In this document: piece after piece, positions 1 through 57,152 of the stretch
Numbering within the stretch: position 1 is the first letter of the stretch
Layout of the letters: each line of letters starts with the position of its first letter
Source of the DNA: a virus
DNA length: 64,000 nucleotides
Strand: one strand, 5' to 3'
Virus record (IMG/VR): IMGVR_UViG_3300032288_003086
Coordinates: 60,087 to 124,086 of that record
Notes under the pieces: model-generated
The model's input: only the letters and a program-made list of their open reading frames with translations
What the model was told of the DNA's origin: nothing
Databases searched by the model: none
Made by a program: the position numbers and the translations under genes

Positions 1-3000
1 ATCACCAACAACCAGATCATAGGTTCTGAAATATCCTTGGAGGTGAAGGACTTCATACTTCAAGGTATGGCTGCATTGTCTATCAAGAATCCTGACATGT
101 CTGCTTCTCAGTTGTTTGACTTGGCCAGGATGGAGGTGCTTAAGATGAAGGACATCAATACCTTGATATCCCAGTCTCCAGAACAAGAAGCTGAGATCTT
201 GGCTAAGTATGGCGAGGAGTTTGCCACTGCAAGATGGCTTTTAGGAGCCATGCTAGAGGGTGAGACCTTTACATATAGAAACTTGACCAATGCACAGGAG
301 TATGATAATCAAGCTACTACAAGTAAAAAGCAGAATGATATTGTCATAGCCAACCTTAAAAGATTGAAGTCTACAGTTATAGAGGAGTACAATAAGCTTG
401 AAGATCTTGAAGATGTAGCGGATGATGAGAATTTTGAAGAAGACTTCAACAAGCAAGATGAAGAGGTTGAAATCAAGGATTCATTCTATGAGGGCGCAGG
501 CTTTGTTGGTATAAAACCCAATGAGGGCAATGCTGCTTTCCGCAGGATGATTCGTTTGATTACTTATGAAGAGATAGATCCTGTCCTTGGCATCAAGGTG
601 CGCAGGATGGTAAACTCTGCTTTGATATTCAGTACCATTACCAAGATTGCCTCAACAGAGTCAAAGGGTAATGCCATTCAAGCCATAAGTGATAAGATAC
701 AAGAGCTGGACTCCCAGATCAAATACTTCAGGGAGAATGTACAAAGCAAACTGCCAAACCCTAATGTCATTCCAATAAGTTATGACAAGGCCATCAAGCT
801 CAGGGACAGTCTCAAGGCGGTATATGATACCATAGATAACATCGTAGGTCTCAATGAAGACTTCGAGGCAACTCGAAACGAGCATGTACTTAAGCAGTTC
901 TCCACTGTATTCTCAAAAACCAACATCAAGCTTATCCAAGCCGAGGTTACTACTGAGATAGAGTTCGACCAGAACAAAAAGCCAGTACCTGTTCCTACAC
1001 CTGAGTCTGCTGTGTCAGATATTGTCACGCTTTATGATATCAATAAGATAAGGAGTTCGCTGCGTGATTCCATATTGTCAATAGACATGACTAAGGATCA
1101 GGCAAAACCTCACTTGCAGAAGTTGCGTGAGCTGGCCAAGCTGCTTAATATAACCAAGCAGTCTGCCATTGACAACATGCTGGATACTTTCTTCACAGAT
1201 AGTGGTGTGATCAATGACCATGCTTTCAGGAACTTCATTGATGATGTATATATCACACTGTCAGCTTTCAATTTAGACATACCTTACTCGCTTCTGTATA
1301 ATGCAATAGGTCATACGGTCTATATGGCCATGGGTAAGAACCTGGCCATGTTTCCCCAGAACAGTGACTTCAGAAGGTCATTGAGTTTAAATAAGGATTT
1401 CTTTCAAGATTTCTCCAAGGTAAAACATGACTTCTGGTATCACAATCTTGTCAATGCGATCGAAGCTTCCGTGGAAGCATCCAATGAGTCCAAGATGCGC
1501 ATGAACAATGAGGCATTGACTACAGCATTGAAGAGGTTCACTACTCCGTATGTGGCTGCCTATGGTGAGTATATTATAAAGCATGACCCTACAATTGCTG
1601 GATCAAGCACTAAGAATGCCAATGGTGACACCATATACAAGTATGTGGATCCTAACAAGGAGATGATCATTCTTCAAAAGCTCAAATCTTTTGATAATAT
1701 TGAAGAAGGTCTTGCTGCAGTTCTTAATGATGGATTCGAGCATTTCTATGAGAACAATCCTATGTTGGACACCAATGATCCAGAAGTGCGCGCGTTCCTT
1801 CAGAACATGCGCATGGAAGTCTTTGCTGGATTCCAACAAAGATTCAACATGCCAGATGGGGGTGTCAAGATGGGTGACCCTAGGACATTCAAAGATATTG
1901 ATGATGCTGCCTTTTTGATGTCCATGCTCTCACTGTTTGTCAGTCAGGAAAGGATATATGTACCTGAGACCAAGAGTTACATCACATCATTCAAAAGGAT
2001 TCTTACAGTATATGAAGCCACTGGTACCAGTATGGTCACCAATGGTGTACTTAGAAGATATTTTGACAATGCATCTGGCAATGTACTTTCAGAAAATGGT
2101 CGTCCTAAATACCTATGGGATCTTGTCAATGTCCTCAAGCAGGAGTATGAATTGATTCGTACTAACTACGAGCAGGAAAGAACCAATGATGCAAACACCA
2201 AGAAGTACCTCAACTACAACATCAACTCTGCCATAGACGAGAAGACAGGGTTCCCCAAAGACAGGGGTTTCAGGTTCAATGTGCTTGCTGACTTTGCAGA
2301 TGCCAATCCTGATCTTGCCAAAGAGTTGATCATGGCTGCCAAGGAGGGATTGTCATTTGATGCCATCATGGCTTCCAAGTCTGAGAAAGTCCTGGTGGAT
2401 GACATGCTCAATAACCTGCACAAATATGCCCAGAATCAGTATGTGACATTCAGGGATAAGTTTCAAAGCCTGGGATTGGATGAGACACATATTCCATTGT
2501 ATGTGACAGATGTATTTGATGAAGAGGCTCAGGTATTCCAGAATGCAAATCCAACCACTGTTCTCAGGGAGTTCTTCTTCAATAACTGGATAAACTCTCT
2601 TTCATTGAACCAGATCTTTGATGGTCCAGTAGCGGTGGGTGTAAAGAACTTTGCCAACTTCTTCAAACGCCAGAAGGCTGGTGCTGCTGCTGGTCCTAGC
2701 TTATTCAATCCCCATGTGAACAAATATGGTGTGAGTAAGACATACAGGGCTGCTGTGATAAAAGAGATTGTCATGTATCTAGATGACTCTGATCTTACCA
2801 AGCCTGCGAGCTTCACTCCTTACTATGAGAAGGGTGACAAGCGCAATGTAGAAGTGAAGATGATTGATGGTCAGTCCTACAATACCATTGCTAGGATGGT
2901 CAATGTGGCTGACAGCAGGGGAAGGCTTGACAATGAATCTTACAGAATGCTTAAGCGCATGATGTATGAAACAGAAGACACTTCCCAGTATGCTAAGAAT

Positions 3001-6000
3001 GTACGCAAACTCAACAAGAGAGGTATTGTCTTCAACAGCTTGAAGACTGTGACTGCAGGTCGTATTGAATACGTCAAACAGTCAGAGCATACTATTATGA
3101 GAAAAGATGTCAGTACTCTCAAAGAGGGTGTTGACTATAATACTGCCATGCAAGAGCTGGATGTACTCTATGATCGCATCATGGATTATAGTTATATGCT
3201 GCAGGCTGGCAGGGATGAGATGGTGTTTGATCCTTCAAACAACAGGGAAAGGCTTGTATCTGAATTATACAAAGAAGCTGTGACCCAGGCTCATTCTTAT
3301 TTCGAGCCCATACCTCAACATGCATTCATGCATCACATGCTCAATTCCATGGAACTCCATAGGATTGACCAGATGTTTGATCCTAATGCAAGTAAGAAGA
3401 TGACCATCAATCCTGTGGAGGTTGACTTACAACCTTCTACTACAGGAATGACTTATTACAACCTTGATCAGGCAGTAATGGATCTACCTAATGAATTCAC
3501 ATTCATCCAGGTCTCTACTGAAAAGGATGCCAACATGGTTACCCAAGGTATCCAACAGAAGCTGTTGCTTGCTGCACAGATTGCCGCGGAGAATCCTGAG
3601 TATGCCTCTATCAAGGATGACATAAACACATACAACACAGGTCTTGCCCAGATGGTGAAGACCCAGTTGAAAGTGCTTCAAAGGATGTTCAACACCAAAG
3701 ACACAGAGGTGATAGGTAAGATCTATCAGGTCATCTCTGCAGGTCTTAAGCAGCAAGGTGCGGACAGTACCATACTCCAGTACTTTGAACTGAATCCAAA
3801 TGGTAGTCCCAAGTACAATCCAAATTTGATGGTTGTGCAGTCCACCATTGCCAACTACTTCTTTTCAATATTCAACAATAACCTGTTTGATAAAAAGATA
3901 GCAGGTAGGAAGTATTACCATGTCAGTTCCATGGGTTACAATGTAATCGAGATGGATGGTAAGGTGATAACTACTTCTGAGTATAAGCGTAACAAGTCTA
4001 AGTATGACAAAGCCATTGCTGCGGGTGAAGCCAAGGTAAGACCTTTGAGTTATACCAAGACCAAACTTGCTGATGGTACTTACAAGTATGAAGTGGAAGT
4101 GATCATTCCCAAAGAGCTTCAGTCTCTTGACCAAGAGTTCCTTGAGAAGTATATGAGTGAGTTCTTTGCTACTCGTATCCCTACTGAGGGTCAGCGTTCC
4201 ATGATTGTAGCCAAGGTGGTTGACTATATGGATGAGGCCTATGGTTCTGGTATCATTGTTCCTCCCCAAGCGCACATGCTTGCAGGATCTGACTTTGACA
4301 TTGATGCGCTATATGCCCACGTCAAGTCATCCTATAGGACTCCTGATGGAAAAAAGGTATTGTATGGAGACTATTCTCATTACATAGAGAAGTATGATAT
4401 GTCTGAGAAGGATGCCAAGTTTATGGAATACCTGGTGTATCTATCCAAGGATCCTGTAATGCAGCCACTTTTGCAGTCAGAACTTAGAAGGATTAACTAC
4501 GAAGCAGGTTATAAGCAAGAGCAGGCCAGGAACTTTGGAAGTCTCTTTGGCGGTAAGCTTGAAGAGTTCTTCTCAAAGAATGCATCCACTATGGAAAAGG
4601 GGGAAGTAGAGAGTGACTCAGAACAGGAATCCATAGATACCTTCAAGAGAGTTATTGCTGTATTCAATGTGCTGGAAGATTTGAAGAAATCCAATCTTCC
4701 ATCAGATCCTGACAGTCTTGAGAAAGAGACTAAGAAGAATGGTTCTCCTGTGATCCCACTTATTCAGAACAAAATCTTGCAAGCCAAGATGAATATCCTA
4801 TCCAATGAGGCTGTATATAAGAAGTTCATGGAAGAATCATCAAACAGGGCTGATGTGGCTGCGGATCCTTACAAGGCTGCAGTTTCAGAAAGAGGACTGA
4901 GTGAAACAGAAATATATAACAAACAAAATATATATACTCCTACAGCCATGGTTGTGGCTAGAGGTTTGAACTCTGAATCCAAAGATTCTTTGGGTATAGC
5001 GGCAAGCTTCAACAAGGGTGTGAGTATGCTGGCTACTGTGCAGGCAGAACTCAAAGGAAAAGTGGGGACTGTATATGAACCCAATGCCAAGGGTAATCCA
5101 GAGCAGAGTATTGTCACAGACAAAGTTGTTGATGAATCTGTGAAGATTGTGGGTGGTTATATCGGTGTTGCGGCGGATGCTGCTAATAATCCATATCCAG
5201 GTCCATTGCATTTGAACAGTCATACTGTTCCTGTAATGCTTGCCATGTTCACCGTAGGCATGCCACAGCGTATGGCAATCATGTTCCAGTCACTACCTAT
5301 AATCCAAAAGATAGTGGCTGAATATACTATGGAGTATGGCAGTGCCTATAAAAAGAATCCTTATTCCAAGGATATGCGATTTGATACATTCCTCAGGGAT
5401 ATGATTAATGAGCTTGAAGAACGCATAGGGATTGAGGAGTTATTGGATCAAGACATCATGTATTTGAGTAAGACTGGAGCCAACTTTGATAAGGATTCCT
5501 ACAAGCTTGTGTGGAATAACCAGATCAAAAAGGACGATCCTGAGTTTGGATCTAGCAAAGATCAGCCCTTGAACACTTTTGGATTTGAGCTTTACAACAA
5601 AAAGAACATTGCATTTACCAGGGACATCGAGGACTTCATCATTCTCAATGAGTTCAAAAACTATAGCAACTTGGCCTCGGAGATCAGCTTTAAGATCACC
5701 AAGCTTACAGATGCATTGAAGTCTATCAAGCCTGACATGGATACCTTCGACAGGTTGGTAAATACCTTTGATATAGTCAGGACTCGTCCTGAAGAATTGA
5801 TGTTGAGTAAAAAGTCAATCCAGGACTTGTTTCAGATGTATCCTGTATTGCGAGAGTCTTATGAAGCATTGAAGTACATGGACAACATGTCCAGCAAAGT
5901 GCTACTTGAGCGTACTAGTTTGATTAAAGGTATGTCTGCACTCATAGGTAATATCTATGGGTATGAAAGTTCAGAGATACGTAAGGACATCAAGGCTTTC

Positions 6001-8145
6001 ATTGGACTTCAATTGCAGCGTGCAATGGCACAACGCGAGCCTGAGTCATTCATGAATAAGATGTTCTTGGAGCAGGTGAATCCTGAGACATTCCTCAATG
6101 GGGATGTCATTGCTGACTATAACCAACTCAAGTCCAGGTATCCTGGTAACAAGTTCATCCAGGCTTTGAGGATTGTGGATATAGGTACTACCTCTAGACC
6201 TGTAAGGGTATTGGAAGCAATATCCAGCAAGCTCTCTCCTGAGATGCGTGAGATGGTATACTCTGACTTGCTCAAGTTATTGGGTGAGGGATATGCCACA
6301 GAAGAGATGGGTGTAAATGGAGAGGTGATGCGTGTACTGGATAAGGAGCGTGCATTCAGGATTGCATACCATGGCATGGTGAAATCAGGTGCTCAAAAGG
6401 TGCGTGGCGGATTCTTTGAATTAGTGCCTGCTGTGCTTTCCAAACCCATGAGCACTGCCTTGGATAGCTTCCAAAGGGATCTGGTAAAGATGGATAACTA
6501 CATCAAGAACAAGTATGATGTATTTGAGGATGTAGATGGAAATCTACGTGCAGAACCACAAGCAGAAGAAGAATATCTAAAGATGCTTACTGCTGCCATA
6601 TCCAAGAACTTTGGTCAGATGGGTATTGATGACATCATCCAGGATGCAGTTATAAAGATTGTGAGCATGAAGCTTGCAGATGGAACTATGACGCCATTCA
6701 AGCGGGTCACTTCTCTTAGAAAAATATCACAGCAACTAGATGAAACTGTGACTATGGAGGATATGGTTAAATTCTTCAACAAGATTGCTCCTGCAAATGC
6801 ACCTTCAATCATAGACAGTAAAGGTTTAAGGGTGTCTACTCTAGAGGCTCAGTACAAGGTTGCATCAGATGAGTATGAGTTATTCACTGGCGTTGACGGG
6901 GTACTTTTTCTTGATCTTGCAGATGTAACCCAGCCTTTTGAAACGAAGATGCTCAGGGCATATGGTATAACCCCTAACTACAAGGACAAGAACTACAGGT
7001 TCCCTTTATATAGGATCAACATATACGGTCAGCTGATGATGTTAAAACGCATCAATGGCAATCCTGTTGGTCAAAAGCTGATGGAAACCTTGTATCTTAC
7101 ACCATTCACCAATGTCCAGGAGTTACAACTTACAGGTGAAACTGCTGTATATGAAGTAGTTCCAGAACAAGGTGTAAGTAAGATATCTCCTTTGGCATTT
7201 ACTTCTCAGGAAGCGGCGGTGATCAAGAACATTGTCAATGGTATCCAGCAGATATCAGATACCAGGATGATGGAAGTACCAAGGTCTATGACAATTGTCA
7301 GGGAGCAGAACAGGATGTATGAGTTGAGAACCCAGAAGAATCCTTCAGGAGCCTACACTAACAAGACCATGTCTACCATCAACATGAGCATTGTAGAGAC
7401 CACTGGTAAGTTCTCAAGGTTCAAAATGGTTGGTGGGGAGTTGTTTCAGTATCTGAATAATGAGCCAGCTGCAAGAGGTGTGAAGCAAGAACAGATGGAT
7501 CTGTTTGCTCAAAGGGTTGGATTCAGCACCTGGGGTGAACTATCCAACAGCGAACGCTTCAAGGACTTTGTTAGTGGCAAAGAGAATTTGTTTCTTTACG
7601 AATTAAACAATGGGGATCCTACCTCTCCAACTGCTCAGCCATTGTCTTCAGCACCTACAACACCTCAAGTGACAGCACCTACCCAAGTTCCTGTAAGTGC
7701 TCAACCTGCTGTAACAGATATTAAAGCGGAAGATATAACCTTTAAGTCAAAGAAGTTAGAAACATTTGAAAGAGCTGAAGGATTGGACGCTGTAAAAGGA
7801 TATAGTCTAGTTATAAAAAATCAACCTAGTGTTGATCTATTTGTCTATAAGGACAAAGAGGGGTGGATTATCATAGATAACACATCTAAACTTAAACTAC
7901 CACTAAGAGGTACAGTTGATGGTAATAGTGCAAGAAAAGATGAAATAGTAGAGTTACTAAGTAATACTTTGAATTATTATGGAAAATTGGAAAGCAGTAG
8001 GAAGACATTAGAAAGTATTGGTTTTAACTTTACCCAAGCTCCTACCACTGAAAAAAGAGCTATGGACATTGTAAAGCTCAATCAGCAGGCACAGGATGTA
8101 CTTAAACAAAAAGAAGACGAATCAAGAAATTGTAACGGAGGATAA
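1..8145 (+). CDS. Giant virion-packaged RNA polymerase (crAss-like double-psi beta-barrel type), 5'-truncated by the window
   Basis: Frame is open from base 1; >2700 aa; RIP...LAGSDFDIDALY catalytic DxDxD-type motif at ~4291-4305, as in crAss-like/phi14:2 gp66 RNAPs. Confidence 0.88.
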   Translation: MTNNQIIGSEISLEVKDFILQGMAALSIKNPDMSASQLFDLARMEVLKMKDINTLISQSPEQEAEILAKYGEEFATARWLLGAMLEGETFTYRNLTNAQEYDNQATTSKKQNDIVIANLKRLKSTVIEEYNKLEDLEDVADDENFEEDFNKQDEEVEIKDSFYEGAGFVGIKPNEGNAAFRRMIRLITYEEIDPVLGIKVRRMVNSALIFSTITKIASTESKGNAIQAISDKIQELDSQIKYFRENVQSKLPNPNVIPISYDKAIKLRDSLKAVYDTIDNIVGLNEDFEATRNEHVLKQFSTVFSKTNIKLIQAEVTTEIEFDQNKKPVPVPTPESAVSDIVTLYDINKIRSSLRDSILSIDMTKDQAKPHLQKLRELAKLLNITKQSAIDNMLDTFFTDSGVINDHAFRNFIDDVYITLSAFNLDIPYSLLYNAIGHTVYMAMGKNLAMFPQNSDFRRSLSLNKDFFQDFSKVKHDFWYHNLVNAIEASVEASNESKMRMNNEALTTALKRFTTPYVAAYGEYIIKHDPTIAGSSTKNANGDTIYKYVDPNKEMIILQKLKSFDNIEEGLAAVLNDGFEHFYENNPMLDTNDPEVRAFLQNMRMEVFAGFQQRFNMPDGGVKMGDPRTFKDIDDAAFLMSMLSLFVSQERIYVPETKSYITSFKRILTVYEATGTSMVTNGVLRRYFDNASGNVLSENGRPKYLWDLVNVLKQEYELIRTNYEQERTNDANTKKYLNYNINSAIDEKTGFPKDRGFRFNVLADFADANPDLAKELIMAAKEGLSFDAIMASKSEKVLVDDMLNNLHKYAQNQYVTFRDKFQSLGLDETHIPLYVTDVFDEEAQVFQNANPTTVLREFFFNNWINSLSLNQIFDGPVAVGVKNFANFFKRQKAGAAAGPSLFNPHVNKYGVSKTYRAAVIKEIVMYLDDSDLTKPASFTPYYEKGDKRNVEVKMIDGQSYNTIARMVNVADSRGRLDNESYRMLKRMMYETEDTSQYAKNVRKLNKRGIVFNSLKTVTAGRIEYVKQSEHTIMRKDVSTLKEGVDYNTAMQELDVLYDRIMDYSYMLQAGRDEMVFDPSNNRERLVSELYKEAVTQAHSYFEPIPQHAFMHHMLNSMELHRIDQMFDPNASKKMTINPVEVDLQPSTTGMTYYNLDQAVMDLPNEFTFIQVSTEKDANMVTQGIQQKLLLAAQIAAENPEYASIKDDINTYNTGLAQMVKTQLKVLQRMFNTKDTEVIGKIYQVISAGLKQQGADSTILQYFELNPNGSPKYNPNLMVVQSTIANYFFSIFNNNLFDKKIAGRKYYHVSSMGYNVIEMDGKVITTSEYKRNKSKYDKAIAAGEAKVRPLSYTKTKLADGTYKYEVEVIIPKELQSLDQEFLEKYMSEFFATRIPTEGQRSMIVAKVVDYMDEAYGSGIIVPPQAHMLAGSDFDIDALYAHVKSSYRTPDGKKVLYGDYSHYIEKYDMSEKDAKFMEYLVYLSKDPVMQPLLQSELRRINYEAGYKQEQARNFGSLFGGKLEEFFSKNASTMEKGEVESDSEQESIDTFKRVIAVFNVLEDLKKSNLPSDPDSLEKETKKNGSPVIPLIQNKILQAKMNILSNEAVYKKFMEESSNRADVAADPYKAAVSERGLSETEIYNKQNIYTPTAMVVARGLNSESKDSLGIAASFNKGVSMLATVQAELKGKVGTVYEPNAKGNPEQSIVTDKVVDESVKIVGGYIGVAADAANNPYPGPLHLNSHTVPVMLAMFTVGMPQRMAIMFQSLPIIQKIVAEYTMEYGSAYKKNPYSKDMRFDTFLRDMINELEERIGIEELLDQDIMYLSKTGANFDKDSYKLVWNNQIKKDDPEFGSSKDQPLNTFGFELYNKKNIAFTRDIEDFIILNEFKNYSNLASEISFKITKLTDALKSIKPDMDTFDRLVNTFDIVRTRPEELMLSKKSIQDLFQMYPVLRESYEALKYMDNMSSKVLLERTSLIKGMSALIGNIYGYESSEIRKDIKAFIGLQLQRAMAQREPESFMNKMFLEQVNPETFLNGDVIADYNQLKSRYPGNKFIQALRIVDIGTTSRPVRVLEAISSKLSPEMREMVYSDLLKLLGEGYATEEMGVNGEVMRVLDKERAFRIAYHGMVKSGAQKVRGGFFELVPAVLSKPMSTALDSFQRDLVKMDNYIKNKYDVFEDVDGNLRAEPQAEEEYLKMLTAAISKNFGQMGIDDIIQDAVIKIVSMKLADGTMTPFKRVTSLRKISQQLDETVTMEDMVKFFNKIAPANAPSIIDSKGLRVSTLEAQYKVASDEYELFTGVDGVLFLDLADVTQPFETKMLRAYGITPNYKDKNYRFPLYRINIYGQLMMLKRINGNPVGQKLMETLYLTPFTNVQELQLTGETAVYEVVPEQGVSKISPLAFTSQEAAVIKNIVNGIQQISDTRMMEVPRSMTIVREQNRMYELRTQKNPSGAYTNKTMSTINMSIVETTGKFSRFKMVGGELFQYLNNEPAARGVKQEQMDLFAQRVGFSTWGELSNSERFKDFVSGKENLFLYELNNGDPTSPTAQPLSSAPTTPQVTAPTQVPVSAQPAVTDIKAEDITFKSKKLETFERAEGLDAVKGYSLVIKNQPSVDLFVYKDKEGWIIIDNTSKLKLPLRGTVDGNSARKDEIVELLSNTLNYYGKLESSRKTLESIGFNFTQAPTTEKRAMDIVKLNQQAQDVLKQKEDESRNCNGG

Positions 8146-37107: not shown

Positions 37108-37198
37108 TAGTCAGGACAGGATTCGAACCTGCATTATTGTTGATCCTCTTTTCTAATGTTTTCTTGAGTCAACCGCTTCACCTTTCGGCCACCTGACT
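37108..37198 (-). ncRNA. tRNA-like RNA lacking a canonical anticodon loop
   Basis: Acceptor AGTCAGG/CCTGACT, D arm GCCG/CGGT, T arm GCAGG-TTCGAAT-CCTGT; 17-nt A-rich loop instead of anticodon loop. Confidence 0.7.
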
Positions 37199-51055: not shown

Positions 51056-51376
51056 TTAGTGATCTTTTGGACCACCATTCTGTGAATAGAACTCTCTCAA
51101 GTACTGTTCTTTGGCCCACTGCTTGCTGACTTGTTGTTCTAGCTGCTCTTGTTCGTGGGCTTCAATCATTTGATCAAAGATATCTTGGTCGAGCTTTTGC
51201 TCAACCACGTTATCCATGTCAGGTTCATCCTGATTATCTACCCATATCTGATATGTGTAGATGTCATTGATGTTATTGGTGATGAACTTACTGGAGAACT
51301 CTTCAATGGTACCAGTCCATGTACCATCTAAAGTACCTGATGAGTTGAAGATGATGTAATACCTGAATCTTTCCAT
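51056..51376 (-). CDS. Hypothetical acidic protein
   Basis: 106 aa. Confidence 0.62.
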   Translation of the reverse strand: MERFRYYIIFNSSGTLDGTWTGTIEEFSSKFITNNINDIYTYQIWVDNQDEPDMDNVVEQKLDQDIFDQMIEAHEQEQLEQQVSKQWAKEQYLREFYSQNGGPKDH

Positions 51377-51971: not shown

Positions 51972-52034
51972 ATAAAAGCCTGAACAACAGACTTTACGGA
52001 GTCCATTGTTCAAGCTAGTTTATACTAATGCCTA

Positions 52035-52430
52035 TTAGAAGGCAGCATCGTTGTGGTCTACTACTACACGACGATTAGGAGTAATGCGAGGGCTGGCAGA
52101 TACATCAGCAGCACGACGATCACTTTCAAGCATACTACGCTTTAGTTCAAAGTCTTCTGAACCGATAGCTTTAAATACATCTACTAAGCGACCAGTCTCA
52201 GCTTCGTAGCCTCTGGACTTTACAATCTCCACATTGTTACCTTCGAAGTTGGTAGTGAAGAATAGTGGTTCACCTGTACCTTCTTCTTGACGGTAGTTGG
52301 CACCTTGAGTCATTTGAAAGTCTGCCAGTTCATCAGTTGTGAAGCTGTGCACTTTGTAGGTGTAAACACGGATACTCTTGCCAGTTGATTCTGACGTTTT
52401 GTTGTACTTGTTGATCAGTTTACCTTTCAT
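52035..52430 (-). CDS. Early hypothetical protein with flexible tail ending DHNDAAF
   Basis: 131 aa; hairpin element ~60 nt upstream. Confidence 0.72.
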   Translation of the reverse strand: MKGKLINKYNKTSESTGKSIRVYTYKVHSFTTDELADFQMTQGANYRQEEGTGEPLFFTTNFEGNNVEIVKSRGYEAETGRLVDVFKAIGSEDFELKRSMLESDRRAADVSASPRITPNRRVVVDHNDAAF

Positions 52431-52480
52431 GGTTTTGATTGATTTAAGTGTTAATAATATAAGAATTGTAGATATTAAGA

Positions 52481-52522
52481 AGTGAGGCCATATGTGGGGC
52501 CGAGCGGCGCGAGGCCCATATG
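52481..52522 (+). promoter_or_regulatory. AGTGAG + capped hairpin element, copy 1 (cap GAGCGGCGCGA)
   Basis: GGGCC/GGCCC stem extended by CATATG; AGTGAG 15 nt before the cap. Confidence 0.6.
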
Positions 52523-52565
52523 TATATACTACCTACTTAAAGTGTAGATAGTATATACAAAGGTT

Positions 52566-52760
52566 TTACTCCATCTCTTCGGTGGCTGCCAATCCCAGCC
52601 ATACAAAGAACAGGTAATAGACTACAGTACACCCTATCCATAATCCTGAAGAGAATATGTCTGAGGGACTGAAGGTGAACAGTGTGCATATACACAATGT
52701 CCACACTGCGATAAAAGGGAAAAGTACGATGATTAAACGAGCTATATTCTTCTTGGTCAT
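52566..52760 (-). CDS. Small two-TM membrane protein
   Basis: 64 aa, hydrophobic. Confidence 0.6.
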   Translation of the reverse strand: MTKKNIARLIIVLFPFIAVWTLCICTLFTFSPSDIFSSGLWIGCTVVYYLFFVWLGLAATEEME

Positions 52761-52893
52761 TTTATATAAGTGTTTGAGTTAGAGTCAATTAAAACCAGGC
52801 TCCTATCTGTTGAGGTCAAGGGTGCTACCCTTATTTCTCGAACCTTAGTGGATTTGTACCACCTGTGCAGCCTAGGAGCCTGGTATACTGTAA

Positions 52894-53316
52894 TTACTCA
52901 GACATTGCGTACTGAGTGGAGGCGTCACCATCCCAATAGTCAGCCTCGGAGACGACTTTGAGATAGGTGACTTTACGAGCAGTTTGAATCTGCTCATCAG
53001 TGAGACCACGCTTCAACATATCCTCGCAGATAGTGAAGGTAGTGTGACTAATGTGTTCCATACCATCATACTCATGAATGTGATACTCACATCCATCAGG
53101 TACTTCCTCGACAGCTAGTTCAGCAAACATACCACTGGCTTTGTCAAGACCAAAGCTAATAGCCTCGTTGACAATGCGCTTGTCATCGCGCATATTCCAA
53201 TAAGTACTGTCCAGTCCATGACTTGTGAACATATCAGGGTGGACAGATTCCAGGTGCTTTAAGAATTCTTTAGAGAATCCAAAGCCACCAAAACGTTGAT
53301 TGATTAATACCTTCAT
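52894..53316 (-). CDS. Conserved phage protein (IN..FGGF.FS...EYDG.E family)
   Basis: Motifs recognised; 140 aa. Confidence 0.72.
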   Translation of the reverse strand: MKVLINQRFGGFGFSKEFLKHLESVHPDMFTSHGLDSTYWNMRDDKRIVNEAISFGLDKASGMFAELAVEEVPDGCEYHIHEYDGMEHISHTTFTICEDMLKRGLTDEQIQTARKVTYLKVVSEADYWDGDASTQYAMSE

Positions 53317-53342
53317 GCGTTTGAGGGTTTAAAGGGTTAGAA

Positions 53343-53645
53343 TTACAAGTTATCTGCCACTACAGCAGAGTCAATTTCAGACAATGACCCCGCTATCAAG
53401 ATGGGGCAACTGGATTCAATATCCCACACATTGTACTTAATAACGCCGTTCACTTCAATGGGATCAAGGAAGTAGGCGTGGAGGTCAAGCTGCTGTTCAA
53501 TGTACTCATTGCCTTCAAAGAGATGATTATCAAACTCTTTCTTGGCGGCGGTGTAACCTTTAGTCTCACCAGAAGCAAAGGAGAATACAGCAACAATAGT
53601 AAGTGTAAAGGCTATGATAACAGCCAGGAAGATGTTGTTCTTCAT
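53343..53645 (-). CDS. N-terminal TM hypothetical protein
   Basis: 100 aa after conserved leader. Confidence 0.62.
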   Translation of the reverse strand: MKNNIFLAVIIAFTLTIVAVFSFASGETKGYTAAKKEFDNHLFEGNEYIEQQLDLHAYFLDPIEVNGVIKYNVWDIESSCPILIAGSLSEIDSAVVADNL

Positions 53646-53646
53646 T

Positions 53647-53670
53647 GTATATGGGTTTTAGAGTTAGTCT
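53647..53670 (-). repeat. Conserved 24-nt early-gene leader, copy 2
   Basis: GTATATGGGTTTTAGAGTTAGTCT. Confidence 0.7.
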
Positions 53671-53676
53671 AATAAA

Positions 53677-53825
53677 AATCCCTCTGCACTCAGTTGTAAT
53701 ACAATTCAAGGATGATGCACTTTTTGCACCTCTTTAAACCTAACCAACCCAGTAAACCTGGTTCATACTAATACGTCTATCAGCACATATTGGATTTTTT
53801 GTATTACAACTGGTGCATTGGGATT
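53677..53825 (-). ncRNA. ~150-nt element closed by a long terminal stem
   Basis: AATCCC..TGCAC.CAGTTGTAATACAA pairs with TTGTATTACAACTG-GTGCA..GGGATT. Confidence 0.55.
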
Positions 53826-54093
53826 AGTGCATAATGTGATAAGCATCCTGCAATCTCTTTTCAAGACTGCCCAGGTAAATACCCTCATCACTATACACTG
53901 GAAGCCTGAGAACATCAGCATTCAACTTAGTACCACCAAAATGCTCCATGTTGATCATATCAATAAGATAATGACCTACATAGAAGGCAATAGTCCAAGA
54001 ATACCCATTGTCCCTTTCAATTACTCGTAACAAAGGATCCTCTGTTGTTGTAAGTGTAGGAGCCCACCATCCTGTGTGAATGAAATCTTTCAT
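53824..54093 (-). CDS. Early hypothetical protein
   Basis: 89 aa after a degenerate leader copy (54098-54118). Confidence 0.6.
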   Translation of the reverse strand: MKDFIHTGWWAPTLTTTEDPLLRVIERDNGYSWTIAFYVGHYLIDMINMEHFGGTKLNADVLRLPVYSDEGIYLGSLEKRLQDAYHIMH

Positions 54094-54443
54094 TGGCGTA
54101 TATGATTTAGAGTTAGTTATCTAATGCCGCACTTTTTTTACTGAAAAGGGTAAATAGTGAAGTGAGATTGGAGGGGAATAGGTGTTGTACTCCCCTCACA
54201 ATCAATCACTTACAGACTAAAATGCTCCACATTCTCATGCTTCATAGCTAGTCTTTTGCTGTTGTAGCCATAAGTGGCCCAGTGTTAGCATAGTTCACAC
54301 TGTTAAGTCGATTACATGGTGCACTCCTTTGTAGTAATCCACACTGAATTGTGTGAACAACGCACACTGGCGAGTTTGCATTCCAGGGTGGTAGAGATTT
54401 CAGCTATTCAAGTTTAACAACAGTGAATAGGTATATTGTAAGA

Positions 54444-54485
54444 AGTGAGGAACAATGCAAGGGCGAGCGGAGCGAGCCCTATTGT
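54444..54485 (+). promoter_or_regulatory. AGTGAG + GAGCGGAGCGA hairpin element, copy 2
   Basis: AGGGC/GCCCT stem extended by ACAAT/ATTGT; AGTGAG 15 nt before the cap. Confidence 0.65.
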
Positions 54486-54511
54486 GTACAGGTGTAGTTA
54501 CTGTGTATGTA

Positions 54512-54532
54512 AGCACGAGCGGAGCGAGTGCT
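54512..54532 (+). promoter_or_regulatory. GAGCGGAGCGA hairpin element, copy 3 (no clear AGTGAG)
   Basis: AGCAC/GTGCT stem. Confidence 0.6.
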
Positions 54533-54830
54533 ATTTGTGCGATAACTTGAGTGTATAGAAAATAGTTTACGATGACTACCCATTTGTTTATATCCAAGCT
54601 TATACAGTACTCGCACCAAGGTTTCAGAGGGTTTCTCTAGATTGGTGTAGCCTGTAAGCATTGAATGGCAAAGAGGAATACTACAGGTTAATTACTCCTG
54701 TGTCATCGTAAACTATATAAAACCACCCGCTTTCTCTAAGCTTCTGTGCGGGTGGTATGAGAGAGTCCTTGTAGCTCAGGACATAAAAGCGAGGAGCCCG
54801 CTATGGACTCCCCGCTGTAAAGACTGCTGA

Positions 54831-55205
54831 TTAAAGCTCAGCATCTTCTGCACTCACCACGGGCTTGCGCACAGTGGTGGTGTTGGAGGTAGCTTTGCGT
54901 GCAGCGACTGCAGCTTGGCGTTGCTCCAAGGTCAGAACTGCTTGAGTCCTGAGGTAGAGGTTCCCAGTCTTGGGATTGATTGCACCCTCTATGTGCAATG
55001 TGTCCGCAGATTCGAACTGCGTACACCAGCGCAATTGGTCAGCCTCCTCGTCAAACTGGACGGTGGTATAACCTTTTGCGCCGTCCCTGCTAAGCTTCTC
55101 AGTGAAATACTGAAGAGTTAGAGGGTTGGCACTGATTTCGCTCAGTGAAGCGCCGTACCAGTTAGCGCCTGCGCTAGTGGTACGGATGTACATTGCTGTA
55201 ATCAT
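54831..55205 (-). CDS. First early gene; hypothetical protein with tail ending SAEDAEL
   Basis: 124 aa; hairpin element ~30 nt upstream. Confidence 0.7.
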   Translation of the reverse strand: MITAMYIRTTSAGANWYGASLSEISANPLTLQYFTEKLSRDGAKGYTTVQFDEEADQLRWCTQFESADTLHIEGAINPKTGNLYLRTQAVLTLEQRQAAVAARKATSNTTTVRKPVVSAEDAEL

Positions 55206-55219
55206 CGTAAATGGCTATT

Positions 55220-55256
55220 AGTGAGTGATATGCTGAGACCGAGCGGAGCGAGGTCT
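55220..55256 (+). promoter_or_regulatory. AGTGAG + GAGCGGAGCGA hairpin element, copy 4
   Basis: AGACC/GGTCT stem; AGTGAG 15 nt before the cap. Confidence 0.65.
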
Positions 55257-55447
55257 ATACAGTAAAATCCGCGTAGTTGGTACTATACTTCGCAACTACG
55301 CGGCGGTCACCGATGGTGCATGCTAGGCTTTCTCGCCATAGACTGCCTCCCTATAAGCCTTATAAGCTTCATAGAGAGATGTAGCATACACTACTACACC
55401 ATCGATGACCCAAGTTCTGAGCTTGGATTCCATCGTAGCTGGCTCAC

Positions 55448-55488
55448 AGTGAGGATGCTATGCACAGGCGAGCGGAGCGAGCCATGTG
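55448..55488 (+). promoter_or_regulatory. AGTGAG + GAGCGGAGCGA hairpin element, copy 5
   Basis: CACAGGC/GCCATGTG stem with bulge; AGTGAG 16 nt before the cap. Confidence 0.62.
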
Positions 55489-55730
55489 ATGTCTCTCTCT
55501 CCTTGAAAGAATTCTTTTTAAGTTGTTGCTAGATTTCGCGAGGCCTCTGTAAACTATGGGGGGTACCCCTCTGACTCCGCGAGGCCTGGGGGGTTGTTGC
55601 TAGGACCCCCACATCTCCTCTAATGTAGAGCATTTTACTATGGCGTTTTAGATAATTGATAATGAAAAGATTATCTAAATTCTAGCAACATATATGTGGG
55701 AGTGGTGAGGTGGATGATATAAGTGGTTGA

Positions 55731-56840
55731 TTATATGACCACTCCATCTTGGATTTGGAAGGGGGATACTGTAAAGGATTTCTTGTCTTCATGGAGTTGT
55801 ACTGTTGCTCCACCTTGTGTCCATTGGTTGAGTACGCCAGTGTATCTTGGTTTTAGGTAGCATAGGGATCCTACTGCCCAGGCTGTGTGTACTTCATCTG
55901 CCAGGTTTCTACTGGAGTCTGTCTGGTTTTTATGCCAGTGGCCGAACATGATATTGACTCCCACGCGCATTCTGACTTGTCTTGCAATGTTGACTGTTCC
56001 AGATCTGAGTCCTAGTTCATGTCCATGGGCTATCCAAAGTTGTCCAAATTTTGCCACTTTTTGTTCAGGTACGTGTATGATATCTAGATCTTGTAGTTGC
56101 ATCAGGGTGGGCATATCCATACCATATAGGTTGGCTAGTTCTTCGCAGCGGCTGATGATGTAGGATTCTAGTCTTTTCTCGTGGTTACCATCTTTCCAGT
56201 AGATGGGTATTTTGGGGAACATTTTTCTCAGTGATTTTAGGAAGGAGCGTCCCACGTCGATTTCATCTTTGAGGTATCTGCCATTGGGTGCGCTTTCAAA
56301 CCTGGATACATTTTCCATGTCCATGATATCTCCATTGAGGTAGATGCCATTTACATTGCGGCGTTTGAACTCGGCGAAGCATGCTTGTACTGCGAACTTG
56401 TCATGGTATGGGAGATGGATGTCGTTGCATATGCCTAGGTTGGTTACACCTTGTATGATATAGGGTTCATTGATTTCGCTCCAGCTGTTGGGAAAGTCTA
56501 TAGTTTCAGCTAGGGGATCTTCAAAGTCAGGGCCTTCAGTGACATCTGGTTCTAGGATATAGGTCTTTTGAGCAAATGATTGAGCAGCGATGTCCATGTT
56601 TTGTACAATGGACTGTGCGATTTCATTTAGATTATCTTCTACAAAGTCTTCTATTTTTCCTGCGCGCGAGTGTACTACGTATTTCTCAACGGTGTATACG
56701 CTGTGTTTGATATCAGGGTTTGTTTTGAGGAAAAGCTGGGCGGTCTTGAATGCTGGTATATTGCGGGTTACTCCTGCCCCATCATTTTTCTTTACGAATT
56801 CATGTATGAGATCTTTGAGTTTTCTGTTCCTTCTTACCAT
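55731..56840 (-). CDS. Calcineurin-like metallophosphoesterase
   Basis: DIHLPYHD, GDIMD, GNHE, HGH, GHWH. Confidence 0.88.
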   Translation of the reverse strand: MVRRNRKLKDLIHEFVKKNDGAGVTRNIPAFKTAQLFLKTNPDIKHSVYTVEKYVVHSRAGKIEDFVEDNLNEIAQSIVQNMDIAAQSFAQKTYILEPDVTEGPDFEDPLAETIDFPNSWSEINEPYIIQGVTNLGICNDIHLPYHDKFAVQACFAEFKRRNVNGIYLNGDIMDMENVSRFESAPNGRYLKDEIDVGRSFLKSLRKMFPKIPIYWKDGNHEKRLESYIISRCEELANLYGMDMPTLMQLQDLDIIHVPEQKVAKFGQLWIAHGHELGLRSGTVNIARQVRMRVGVNIMFGHWHKNQTDSSRNLADEVHTAWAVGSLCYLKPRYTGVLNQWTQGGATVQLHEDKKSFTVSPFQIQDGVVI

Positions 56841-56843
56841 GGT

Positions 56844-57152
56844 CTATAGGATTGCGCTAAAGCGTTTGATTATGTTTCTTACTTGGCGTGGGCTTAGCTT
56901 GTTTATAAGGTAGGTCTCATGCCATAGTACCTGTTCTTCAGTCATCTCAGGATGGAGGAAGTGCAGTGCCTCATGAAGTAGGGTGCTGATGAGTTCATCC
57001 CTGTAATCCAGTTCAATACGCTCTATATCAGTGTGGCAATAGCCTCTGGCTGAGCGTAGTTTCTTGACATGGAATATATGAGGCTTCTCCCTAAACAACT
57101 TGTACAGCTTACGTACAAATCGATCCTTGTTTATGAGTGGTGTCTGAGGCAT
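56844..57152 (-). CDS. Small zincin-like metallopeptidase
   Basis: TLLHEALHF...E..V HExxH motif. Confidence 0.68.
   Translation of the reverse strand: MPQTPLINKDRFVRKLYKLFREKPHIFHVKKLRSARGYCHTDIERIELDYRDELISTLLHEALHFLHPEMTEEQVLWHETYLINKLSPRQVRNIIKRFSAIL

What the first reader, a model, noticed from the sequence alone, without database searches (positions are those of the whole stretch)
52476..55488. Five co-oriented DNA hairpins with a near-invariant GA-GC-GGA-GC-GA cap and a fixed-distance AGTGAG box: candidate promoters for the virion RNA polymerase
Seen: the 11-nt cap GAGCGGAGCGA starts at 54465, 54517, 55241 and 55470, with variant GAGCGGCGCGA at 52502. Each cap is closed by a stem of different sequence that stays complementary (GGGCC/GGCCC, AGGGC/GCCCT, AGCAC/GTGCT, AGACC/GGTCT, GGC/GCC), i.e. 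covariation. Four copies carry AGTGAG 15-16 nt 5' of the cap, and two share TAAGAAGTGAGG. All lie on the plus strand, the template for the minus-strand early genes; two sit 30-60 nt upstream of start codons (52430, 55205). Established: GC-GNA-GC triloops and tandem sheared GA pairs are unusually stable in ssDNA; the N4 virion RNAP recognises template-strand hairpins with a C-GGA-G loop; crAss-like phages package an unrelated RNAP for early transcription. Inference: these are bipartite hairpin promoters for the RNAP at 1-8145, with the start near CTCACT, convergent with N4. Alternative: PriA/primase priming sites, since ColE1 n'-pas has a similar GAGCGCAGCGAG hairpin and AGTGAG.
Basis: partly seen in the sequence, partly recalled or inferred. 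Interest (0 to 1): 0.88.

Follow-up and report, generated by a model that had tools for sequence, protein, structure and literature searches.

The report
Candidate hairpin promoters for crAss-like virion RNAP
A freshwater crAss-like phage carries five conserved DNA hairpins on the template strand just ahead of its first early genes, which look like start signals for the RNA polymerase it injects, a class of signal not yet described for these phages.

Summary
The 11-nt cap GAGCGGAGCGA (one copy GAGCGGCGCGA) occurs five times, all on the + strand and all within 3 kb. These are the only copies in the 124-kb genome (0.15 expected by chance). AGTGAG lies 15-16 nt 5' of four caps.

New evidence:
- The giant ORF is a homologue of phi14:2 gp66, the crAss-like virion RNAP (hhalign 98.3%).
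- Eleven further copies occur in three related contigs, at syntenic sites before orthologous early genes and always on the template strand.
- Base pairs covary, including a G-C to A-T double change inside the cap.
- The loop triplet is uniform within a genome but differs between genomes (GGA, GCA, AAA, AGA).
- The G000 heptamer GCGGAGC is the same mini-hairpin sequence that N4 virion RNAP binds.
- Terminator-like hairpins precede some copies.

Best reading (about 0.45): template-strand hairpin promoters for the injected RNAP, convergent with N4. No RNA data exist, so promoter activity is inferred.

Rivals are an RNA 5'-leader element, primase or PriA priming sites, and a regulatory protein site.

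The motif is confined to a narrow clade. It is absent from other relatives and from phi14:2.

The parts
55467..55483 (+). Hairpin h1: GGC + cap GAGCGGAGCGA + GCC
55448..55453 (+). Box AGTGAG of h1 (CTCACT in the mRNA sense), 16 nt from the cap
55323..55433 (-). 36-aa ORF starting 37 nt after the h1 cap. Weakly similar small ORFs follow the first hairpin in G001 and G002.
   Evidence: translations; pairwise scores are low, so conservation is weak
55236..55256 (+). Hairpin h2: AGACC + cap + GGTCT
55220..55225 (+). Box AGTGAG of h2, 15 nt from the cap. In the mRNA sense it is followed by AATAGCCATT TACG ATG.
54831..55205 (-). 124-aa early-type gene behind h2. Its family has a conserved C-terminal (E/D/K)DAx(F/L) tail.
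54788..54816 (-). Terminator-like hairpin plus T-rich tail just after the 124-aa gene
54715..54756 (-). Second terminator-like hairpin (ACCACCCGC/GCGGGTGGT, then TTTTATA), upstream in the mRNA sense of h3 and h4
   Evidence: read. Its loop is too long for the scan.
54512..54532 (+). Hairpin h3: AGCAC + cap + GTGCT. It has no box and forms a tandem pair with h4.
54452..54485 (+). Hairpin h4: AGGGC + cap + GCCCT, with an outer ACAAT/ATTGT extension
54444..54449 (+). Box AGTGAG of h4 (within TAAGAAGTGAGG)
52489..52522 (+). Hairpin h5: GGGCC + cap GAGCGGCGCGA + GGCCC, with an outer CATAT/ATATG extension
52481..52486 (+). Box AGTGAG of h5 (within TAAGAAGTGAGG)
52035..52430 (-). 131-aa gene behind h5. 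Orthologues sit behind hairpins in G001 and G002.
1..8145 (+). C-terminal 2714 aa of the 3882-aa gp66-like virion RNAP, the presumed reader of the hairpins

Best explanation
The five elements are promoters, or essential promoter parts, for the early transcription units of a crAss-like phage. They would be read as a DNA hairpin on the template strand by the injected gp66-type virion RNAP.

Proposed structure. Each element folds as 2-5 variable Watson-Crick pairs, a tandem G.A/A.G step (CGAG against CGAG), two G-C pairs and a 3-nt loop.

Proposed recognition. The polymerase recognises the constant frame and reads the loop triplet sequence-specifically. Transcription would start downstream, at or near the fixed-distance box: CNCAYY in the mRNA sense, 15 nt after the cap, with TAC 31-33 nt after it.

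What is shown:
- the sequence recurrence, strand and base-pair covariation;
- synteny before orthologous genes;
- homology of the giant ORF to gp66.

What is inferred:
- that the hairpin forms in vivo;
- that the virion RNAP binds it;
- where RNA synthesis starts.
For: 1. Non-random and unique. There are 5 copies against 0.15 expected, all on one strand, and they are the only ones in the genome.

2. Sixteen instances in four sequences. G000 has 5, G001 has 4, G002 has 5 and L056 has 2. All lie on the strand that is the template for the neighbouring genes. In the complete relative G001, the 4 copies are the only ones in 125 kb.

3. Structure is selected.
- Pair 35-50 reads GC 12, AU 2, CG 2, with none unpaired.
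- Pair 39-46 reads GC 14, AU 2; GAACGCAGTGA occurs in both G001 and G002.
- 0 of 500 shuffles reach the observed covariation score, and all six slid registers score lower.
- The orthologous pair G000 h4 and L056_350 keeps the flanks but swaps the stem AGGGC/GCCCT for TTGCGC/GCGCAA.

4. The loop is uniform within a genome and differs between genomes.
- G000: GGA x4, GGC x1.
- G001: GCA x4.
- G002: GCA x4, GATA x1.
- L056: AAA x2.
- In a 97%-similar strain (run X3), both h1 and h2 show the same G>A at the first loop base, among 22 differences in 706 nt.
- This pattern fits a co-evolving trans-acting reader. The RNAP cores of G000 and G001 are only 50% identical.

5. Context.
- The copies precede orthologous genes in three genomes.
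- In 6 of 16 copies an ATG lies 33-37 nt after the cap, and in 8 of 16 a TAC lies 31-33 nt after it.
- Terminator-like hairpins lie between the preceding gene and h3/h4 and likewise in L056. A new start is therefore needed there.

6. The giant ORF is a gp66 homologue. In vitro, gp66 transcribes single-stranded or denatured DNA efficiently, does not transcribe double-stranded M13 DNA and only weakly transcribes native phi14:2 DNA; it also drives rifampicin-resistant early transcription (passages of bioRxiv 10.1101/2020.03.07.982082).

7. Precedent. N4 virion RNAP binds a template-strand GCGGAGC mini-hairpin. This is the same heptamer as in G000. GCGNAGC and GCGNNAGC are exceptionally stable in DNA, and 11 of 16 copies fit that formula.
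Against: - No RNA data exist. No run on record as RNA holds this DNA, so no 5' end supports a start.
- In phi14:2, the one crAss-like phage studied, early transcripts showed no common upstream motif. My scan of its first 9.7 kb found no comparable hairpin, nor did the model.
- The motif is confined to a narrow clade. 29 of 32 IMG/VR loci with the neighbouring phosphoesterase gene lack any GAGCNNNGCGA hairpin, including L018 with an 86% identical phosphoesterase.
- 5 of 16 copies are not GNA or GNNA mini-hairpins closed by G-C pairs (AAA x2, GGC, and the two A-T variants). The X3 strain has AGA, so extreme stability is not universal.
- Nearest-neighbour folding is unremarkable.
- In G001 and G002 only 2 outer pairs are complementary.
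- The hairpin is about 25 nt from the box, whereas N4 starts about 11 nt from the loop centre.
- The first two genes of the leftward block (56844-57152 and 55731-56840) have no hairpin.
- Position just before start codons fits an RNA-level element equally well.
Confidence: 0.45

Rival explanations
1. RNA-level element. The region is transcribed from upstream, and the hairpin acts in the mRNA leader. It would be bound by a phage protein or cut by an RNase to control stability or translation of the gene that follows.
For: - The element sits 33-72 nt before start codons of orthologous genes.
- The stretch from box to ATG is conserved within genomes.
- Loop uniformity within a genome would also fit an RNA-binding reader.
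- Base-pair covariation cannot tell the two strands apart.
Against: - In the mRNA sense, the invariant frame becomes tandem U.C/C.U mismatches with a pyrimidine loop (UCC, UGC, UUU). That is a poor RNA structure. The opposite strand gives tandem sheared G.A next to GNA loops of known stability.
- Terminator-like hairpins lie between the preceding gene and h3/h4.
- h3 and L056_294 have no gene or box directly behind them.
Confidence: 0.2
2. Single-strand initiation signals. The hairpins would be recognised by a primase or a PriA-type primosome and mark an origin region.
For: - Mini-hairpin sequences occur at the G4, St-1 and alpha3 priming sites and in RSF1010 ssiA (passages of PMC13037366).
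- ColE1 carries GAGCGTAGCGA next to AGTGAG.
- The cluster lies at the cumulative GC-skew minimum and near the strand switch.
Against: - Each copy is tied to the start of an orthologous gene in three genomes, with fixed spacing to a box and often to the ATG. A priming site has no need of this.
- All copies are on one strand. That strand would be the leading-strand template for a fork leaving the divergence point at about 57.2 kb.
- The GC skew here also follows gene direction, so it does not locate an origin.
- The ColE1 match is within chance and has a different layout.
Confidence: 0.1
3. A binding site on DNA for a phage or host regulatory protein that is not the virion RNAP. Examples are a repressor or activator of early genes, or a cruciform-binding factor. 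Alternatively, it is part of a terminator-plus-promoter cassette used by the host RNAP.
For: - The frame is conserved, the loop is genome-specific, and the element lies upstream of genes.
- Strain differences in this region are cassette-like: a 187-nt deletion ends at the 3' edge of h3, and the 89-aa gene is replaced in run X3. Regulatory cassettes that flank shuffled early genes in other phages behave this way (recalled, not checked).
Against: - Stems keep complementarity but not sequence. This points to a folded strand rather than a duplex operator.
- Sigma-70-like matches in the region are no more frequent than in shuffles (23 against 19.9).
- The Bacteroidota-type TTTG...TAnnTTTG motif is not found near the hairpins.
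- No U-run follows the hairpin on either strand.
Confidence: 0.15

Closest known systems
Coliphage N4 early promoters P1-P3 (hairpin promoters of the N4 virion RNAP)
   Same: - Both are small DNA hairpins on the template strand upstream of early genes of a phage that injects a giant RNAP.
- Both have a GC-rich heptamer with a 3-nt purine loop closed by C:G. The G000 heptamer GCGGAGC is the very sequence cited for N4.
- In both, stem bases vary while pairing is kept.
   Different: - The polymerase here is a two-barrel gp66/QDE-1-type enzyme, not a T7-like single-subunit RNAP.
- The stem is interrupted by an invariant tandem G.A step.
- A second conserved box lies 15 nt beyond the hairpin, so the geometry differs from N4, which starts about 11 nt from the loop centre.
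- Loops AAA, AGA and GGC occur.
- No biochemical data exist.
Mini-hairpin DNA, GCGNAGC / GCGNNAGC
   Same: 11 of 16 copies contain GCGGAGC, GCGCAGC or GCGATAGC. All three are listed as stable mini-hairpins, with Tm of about 71-73 C.
   Different: Five copies do not fit: GCAAAGC x2, GCGGCGC and ACGCAGT x2. Here the element is embedded in a longer stem with CGAG/CGAG steps.
Primase / PriA single-strand initiation sites (G4 origin, RSF1010 ssiA, ColE1 region at 1332)
   Same: These are mini-hairpin-type caps on single-stranded DNA. ColE1 has GAGCGTAGCGA with AGTGAG beside it.
   Different: The phage copies are coupled to gene starts, lie on one strand only, and have the box on the other side of the cap at a fixed 15 nt. 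That the ColE1 site is the n'-pas is recalled and was not verified.
phi14:2 gp66-dependent early transcription
   Same: The polymerase is homologous, prefers single-stranded templates and gives rifampicin-resistant early transcription. phi14:2 also has long, highly transcribed non-coding stretches among its first early genes, which resembles the long gaps here.
   Different: phi14:2 early transcripts had no detectable common upstream motif. Neither my scan nor the model found this hairpin there.

Membership tests
N4-type hairpin promoter of a virion RNAP | Hairpin with a 3-nt loop and GC-rich heptamer on the template strand of early genes | tested here: met
   All 16 copies lie on the template strand of the adjacent ORFs. 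Heptamer GCGGAGC occurs in 4 of 5 G000 copies.
N4-type hairpin promoter of a virion RNAP | Continuous 5-7 bp stem next to the loop; start about 11 nt from the loop centre at a template C | tested here: not met
   There are only 2 pairs next to the loop, then a tandem G.A step, then 2-5 pairs. The conserved box is about 25 nt from the loop centre. The start site itself was not mapped.
N4-type hairpin promoter of a virion RNAP | Read by a T7-like single-subunit virion RNAP | tested here: not met
   The giant ORF aligns with phi14:2 gp66 (98.3%) and carries DFDID. No PDB sequence hit to N4 vRNAP was found.
N4-type hairpin promoter of a virion RNAP | Activity depends on supercoiling and SSB; initiation shown in vitro or in vivo | not testable with these tools
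   No RNA run holds this DNA.
Mini-hairpin DNA (GCGNAGC / GCGNNAGC) | Sequence formula with G-C closing pairs and a G...A loop | tested here: inconclusive
   11 of 16 copies fit and 5 do not.
crAss-like (gp66-type) virion RNAP, for the ORF at 1-8145 | DFDxD catalytic motif and homology to gp66 | tested here: met
   DFDID lies at residue 2599 and is invariant in 22 of 22 aligned homologues. hhalign gives 98.3%, E 2.5e-14. Packaging into virions was not testable.
Intrinsic (rho-independent) terminator | G+C-rich stem-loop followed by a U-run on the transcribed strand | tested here: not met
   No T-run follows any of the five hairpins on either strand. None is among the 12 terminator-like sites.
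Primosome assembly / primase recognition site | Supports primer synthesis on single-stranded DNA; located at an origin | not testable with these tools
   Only resemblance is available: mini-hairpin caps at known sites and the ColE1 match.

The most novel reading that the evidence does not exclude

An enzyme unrelated to N4 vRNAP would have converged on the same solution. That solution is a template-strand mini-hairpin, down to the identical GCGGAGC heptamer.

The 3-nt loop would act as a specificity code (GGA, GCA, AAA, AGA) that co-evolves with each phage's polymerase.
Probability: 0.4. Interest if true: 0.85.

Novelty: new variant of a known kind. Interest (0 to 1): 0.66.

Why it matters
How the injected RNAP of crAss-like phages finds the early genes is an open question.

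State of the literature I could see:
- The only experimental study found no common motif upstream of early transcripts. It showed only that the enzyme prefers single-stranded DNA.
- A 2023 review of the order does not contain the word "promoter".
- My searches found no paper describing such promoters.

What this finding offers:
- A defined, short element (about 50 nt) with natural loop variants gives a direct in vitro test. The test needs only oligonucleotide templates and recombinant polymerase.
- If confirmed, it would show convergent promoter logic between two unrelated virion RNAPs.
- It would also give a search handle for early regions in uncultured phages.

Tried and rejected
- **Exact bipartite pattern in IMG/VR.** AGTGAG, a 14-17 nt gap, then the cap gave 12 loci. 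None has the hairpin layout; they are tandem repeats or chance matches.
- **blastn of 52000-56000 against GenBank phages.** No match.
- **RNA evidence.** No RNA holder is listed among the 22 runs, so expression could not be examined.
- **Covariance model R1.** Over 40 sources (502,557 bases) it found only the training copies and their duplicates in L055. Nothing turned up in distant relatives or in phi14:2.
- **De novo scans.**
  - A scan for recurrent loops with differing stems recovered this element only in G000 and L056. It was not recovered in G001 or G002, whose outer stem is constant.
  - The 9-mer recurrence scan and the plain hairpin list added nothing.
- **GCGNAGC / GCGNNAGC strand bias.** Downstream of the phosphoesterase gene in 30 loci the counts were 35 on the template strand and 23 on the coding strand. 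14 of the 35 come from G001 and G002, so there is no general bias.
- **phi14:2 first 9.7 kb.** No comparable hairpin in a crude perfect-stem scan.
- **Host-type promoters.** Sigma-70-like sites are not above shuffles. The Bacteroidota TTTG...TAnnTTTG motif has 4 hits in the genome, none at the hairpins.
- **Folding energies.** DNA top strand, DNA bottom strand and RNA sense strand were folded. Most z-scores lie between +0.9 and -2.5 and a few reach about -3 to -3.5, with no strand consistently favoured, so thermodynamics gives no decision between strands.
- **Identity of the giant ORF.**
  - PHROGs, Pfam, and PDB searches by sequence and by profile gave nothing useful.
  - The ESM Atlas gave only a weak lead to PF05183 (score 0.79).
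  - hhalign against gp66 settled the question.
- **"SSB-like" reading of the 124-aa protein.**
  - The C-terminal (E/D/K)DAx(F/L) tail is conserved in 20 of 20 family members.
  - The AlphaFold model (pLDDT 78.6) had no Foldseek match at E <= 0.001 and no VIA match at Z >= 5.
  - An OB fold is therefore neither shown nor excluded.
- **More relatives.**
  - IMG/VR scans with the 131-aa and 124-aa families returned only G002 and G001.
  - 17 further homologues of the 124-aa protein exist on short contigs, but their DNA could not be fetched.
- **Literature on the ColE1 string.** None of the 8 papers listed contains it.
- **Not done.** Complex prediction and the search of protein representatives were not used.
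- **Supplements.** The supplementary tables of the phi14:2 paper (primer-extension end points) were not available and may bear on whether hairpins precede its early starts.

Full report
**Setting.** The window is the last 64 kb of a 124,086-bp virus record with a 123-bp terminal repeat.
- Genes run rightward from about 57.26 kb, wrapping through the record start to about 23 kb of the window. They run leftward from 57,152 down to about 23.3 kb.
- PHROG hits identify a large terminase, a DNA polymerase, a helicase and exonucleases.
- The leftward block begins with a 102-aa ORF and a metallophosphoesterase at 55731-56840.
- After these come 5 kb of small ORFs separated by unusually long gaps of 117-737 nt. 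The finding lies in these gaps.
- DNA runs that hold the stretch come from freshwater, plankton and sediment metagenomes.

- The cap with up to 1 mismatch occurs five times, all on the + strand, at 52502, 54465, 54517, 55241 and 55470. Shuffles expect 0.15, and 0 of 100 reach five.
- These are the only copies in the whole genome.
- AGTGAG lies 15-16 nt 5' of four caps. AGTGAG by itself is not enriched, so only the spacing counts.

**The polymerase premise.**
- The ORF at 1-8145 is the C-terminal part of a 3882-aa protein with DFDID at residue 2599.
- 114 homologues of 1.5-4.7 kaa exist, many on contigs of 120-130 kb. In an alignment of 22 of them the three aspartates are invariant.
- Sequence searches of Pfam, PHROGs and PDB were silent.
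- A profile comparison with gp66 of Cellulophaga phage phi14:2, annotated as the catalytic RNA polymerase subunit, gave probability 98.3%, E 2.5e-14 over 879 columns.
- The phage therefore encodes a crAss-type virion RNAP.

**Relatives.** Using the phosphoesterase as an anchor, 32 IMG/VR loci were fetched.
- Only two carry GAGCNNNGCGA hairpins on the same relative strand: a complete 125,114-bp genome (G001, locus L047) and a 17.6-kb fragment (G002, locus L019).
- In G001 the strict cap occurs three times in the whole genome. A fourth, variant copy brings the total to four.
- A metagenome scan anchored on the 140-aa gene added L056 with two copies, and L055, which duplicates G002.
- In all there are 16 instances.
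- The other relatives lack the element. These include L018, whose phosphoesterase is 86% identical.
- Nucleotide similarity downstream of the phosphoesterase is lost in all but G001 and G002. This is a fast-evolving region.

**Structure.** Pair counts on the 16-row alignment:
- The two pairs next to the loop and the two pairs outside the G.A step are never unpaired.
- Pair 35-50 shows three pair types (GC 12, AU 2, CG 2).
- Pair 39-46 switches G-C to A-T in GAACGCAGTGA, which is present in both G001 and G002.
- The three outermost pairs hold in G000 and L056 (7 of 16 rows) but not in G001 or G002, where the flanks are the constant AGC...GCG.
- The covariation score is 0.346 against 0.170 in shuffles (0 of 500 reach it), and all slid registers are lower.
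- The rows are related, so these figures overstate independence.

The clearest single case is the orthologous pair G000 h4 and L056_350. They have identical flanks (TAAGAAGTGAGGAACAATGC... and ...TGTGTACAGG) but stems AGGGC/GCCCT against TTGCGC/GCGCAA. Standard folding energies are unremarkable on either strand.

**Which strand is structured.**
- The invariant frame is C-GA-GC...GC-GA-G on the + strand. That is two CGAG tetrads able to form tandem sheared G.A pairs around a GC-NNN-GC mini-hairpin.
- GCGNAGC and GCGNNAGC are documented as extraordinarily stable in DNA. GCGGAGC melts at about 73 C, GCGCAGC at about 71 C and GCGATAGC at 71 C, and only GNA triloops form the structure (passages of PMC13037366).
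- Eleven of 16 copies fit the formula.
- On the mRNA-sense strand the same positions give U.C/C.U mismatches and pyrimidine loops.
- This asymmetry favours a function of the + strand as DNA. The + strand is the template for all neighbouring genes.

**The loop behaves like a specificity element.**
- G000: GGA in four copies and GGC in one.
- G001: GCA in all four.
- G002: GCA in four and GATA in one.
- L056: AAA in both.
- In run X3, one contig covers 54991-55696 with 22 differences. Two of them are the same G>A change at the first loop base of h2 (55245) and of h1 (55474), giving AGA in both.
- Parallel change in separate copies, with an untouched frame, is what a co-evolving reader would produce. 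Gene conversion over 11 nt seems less likely.
- The RNAP cores of G000 and G001 share only 50% identity, although the phosphoesterases share 84%.

**Context.** In the mRNA sense each unit reads: hairpin, 15 variable nt, a box, and often TAC at +31 to +33.
- The box is CTCACT in G000 and L056, and CACATC or CGCATC in G001 and G002. The common form is CNCAYY.
- TAC at +31 to +33 occurs in 8 of 16 copies.
- In 6 of 16 an ATG follows at +33 to +37.
- The first hairpin after the phosphoesterase precedes a 36-43-aa ORF in G000, G001 and G002 (weak similarity).
- The second precedes the 124/147/149-aa family.
- A later one precedes the 131/127/132-aa family.
- After the 124-aa gene come two terminator-like hairpins, then the tandem pair h3-h4. 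L056 shows the same order.
- Genes in this region without hairpins carry a different A/C-rich leader, CTAACnCTAAAAC.

**Comparison with what is known.**
- N4 early promoters are template-strand hairpins with a GC-rich heptamer centred at -11. The closing C:G pair and the loop 5'G and 3'A are needed for hairpin extrusion and stability, and the polymerase reads -11A/G, -10G, -8G and +1C (PMC4496689).
- The heptamer bound by mini-vRNAP is GCGGAGC (PMC13037366).
- The related P23-45 virion RNAP uses an AT-rich motif.
- A 2023 review never uses the word "promoter". Three searches found no report of hairpin promoters in this group.

**Verdict.**
- The element is real, structured, strand-specific, conserved in position and tied to early-type genes.
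- Promoter function for the virion RNAP is the best-supported reading. It remains an inference, at about 0.45.
- The main weaknesses are the absence of any RNA data, the narrow distribution, the non-GNA loops in some strains, and the fact that a leader-RNA role fits the positions equally well.

Noticed in passing
window 55269-55303: A second hairpin with a conserved loop and unrelated stems lies between the small ORF and h2. Its + strand loop is GTACTATACTTCG. G001 keeps the same loop with stem CTCCG/CGGAG. G002 has loop TACTGTACTTC with a 13-bp stem.
   Followed up: partly
window 54831-55205 and 52035-52430 (minus strand): Both genes behind hairpins end in an acidic tail...EDAEL and ...NDAAF. 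The (E/D/K)DAx(F/L) tail is kept in 20 of 20 members of the 124-aa family. The AlphaFold model (pLDDT 78.6) has no clear fold match.
   Followed up: partly
window 53677-53825 and 52794-52884: Long inverted repeats each fill an intergenic gap. The arm sequences (…GCACTCAGTTGTAATA… / …TATTACAACTG…GTGCATTGGGATT) recur in G001 next to tRNA-like genes.
   Followed up: no
window 54150-54215: AGTGAG is followed by a different hairpin (GAGGGGA...TCCCCTC) and by the conserved TCAATCACTTACA. The same block occurs in G001 after the 127-aa gene, where it looks like a terminator with a T-run, and in L056.
   Followed up: partly
window 55540-55625: A G/C-rich block containing GGGGGGTACCCCTCTGA lies just downstream of the phosphoesterase stop. 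It is conserved in G001 and G002 (83% over 71 nt with L019).
   Followed up: no
window 53700-54090 and 54531-54719: In the strain of run X3 the 89-aa gene is replaced by 291 other letters. 187 nt next to h3 are replaced by 11 letters. The early region is a mosaic of cassettes.
   Followed up: partly
window 37108-37198 (minus strand): Rfam scores a tRNA here (44.5 bits), but ARAGORN calls no tRNA anywhere in the window.
   Followed up: no
giant ORF, residues about 1008-1017 (outside the window; genome about 59.6 kb): An invariant HExxH-type block (YHEAFHGVFR) occurs in the N-terminal half of all 22 aligned giant proteins. This suggests a zincin-like domain fused to the polymerase.
   Followed up: no
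window, upstream of minus-strand starts at 51376, 52760, 53316, 53645, 54093, 37092: A recurrent A/C-rich leader, CTAAC(n)CTAAAAC, lies 10-30 nt before start codons. No Shine-Dalgarno sequence is visible.
   Followed up: no
G001 against G000: The phosphoesterase is 84% identical, but the RNAP core is only 50% identical. The two genomes are mosaic relatives.
   Followed up: no
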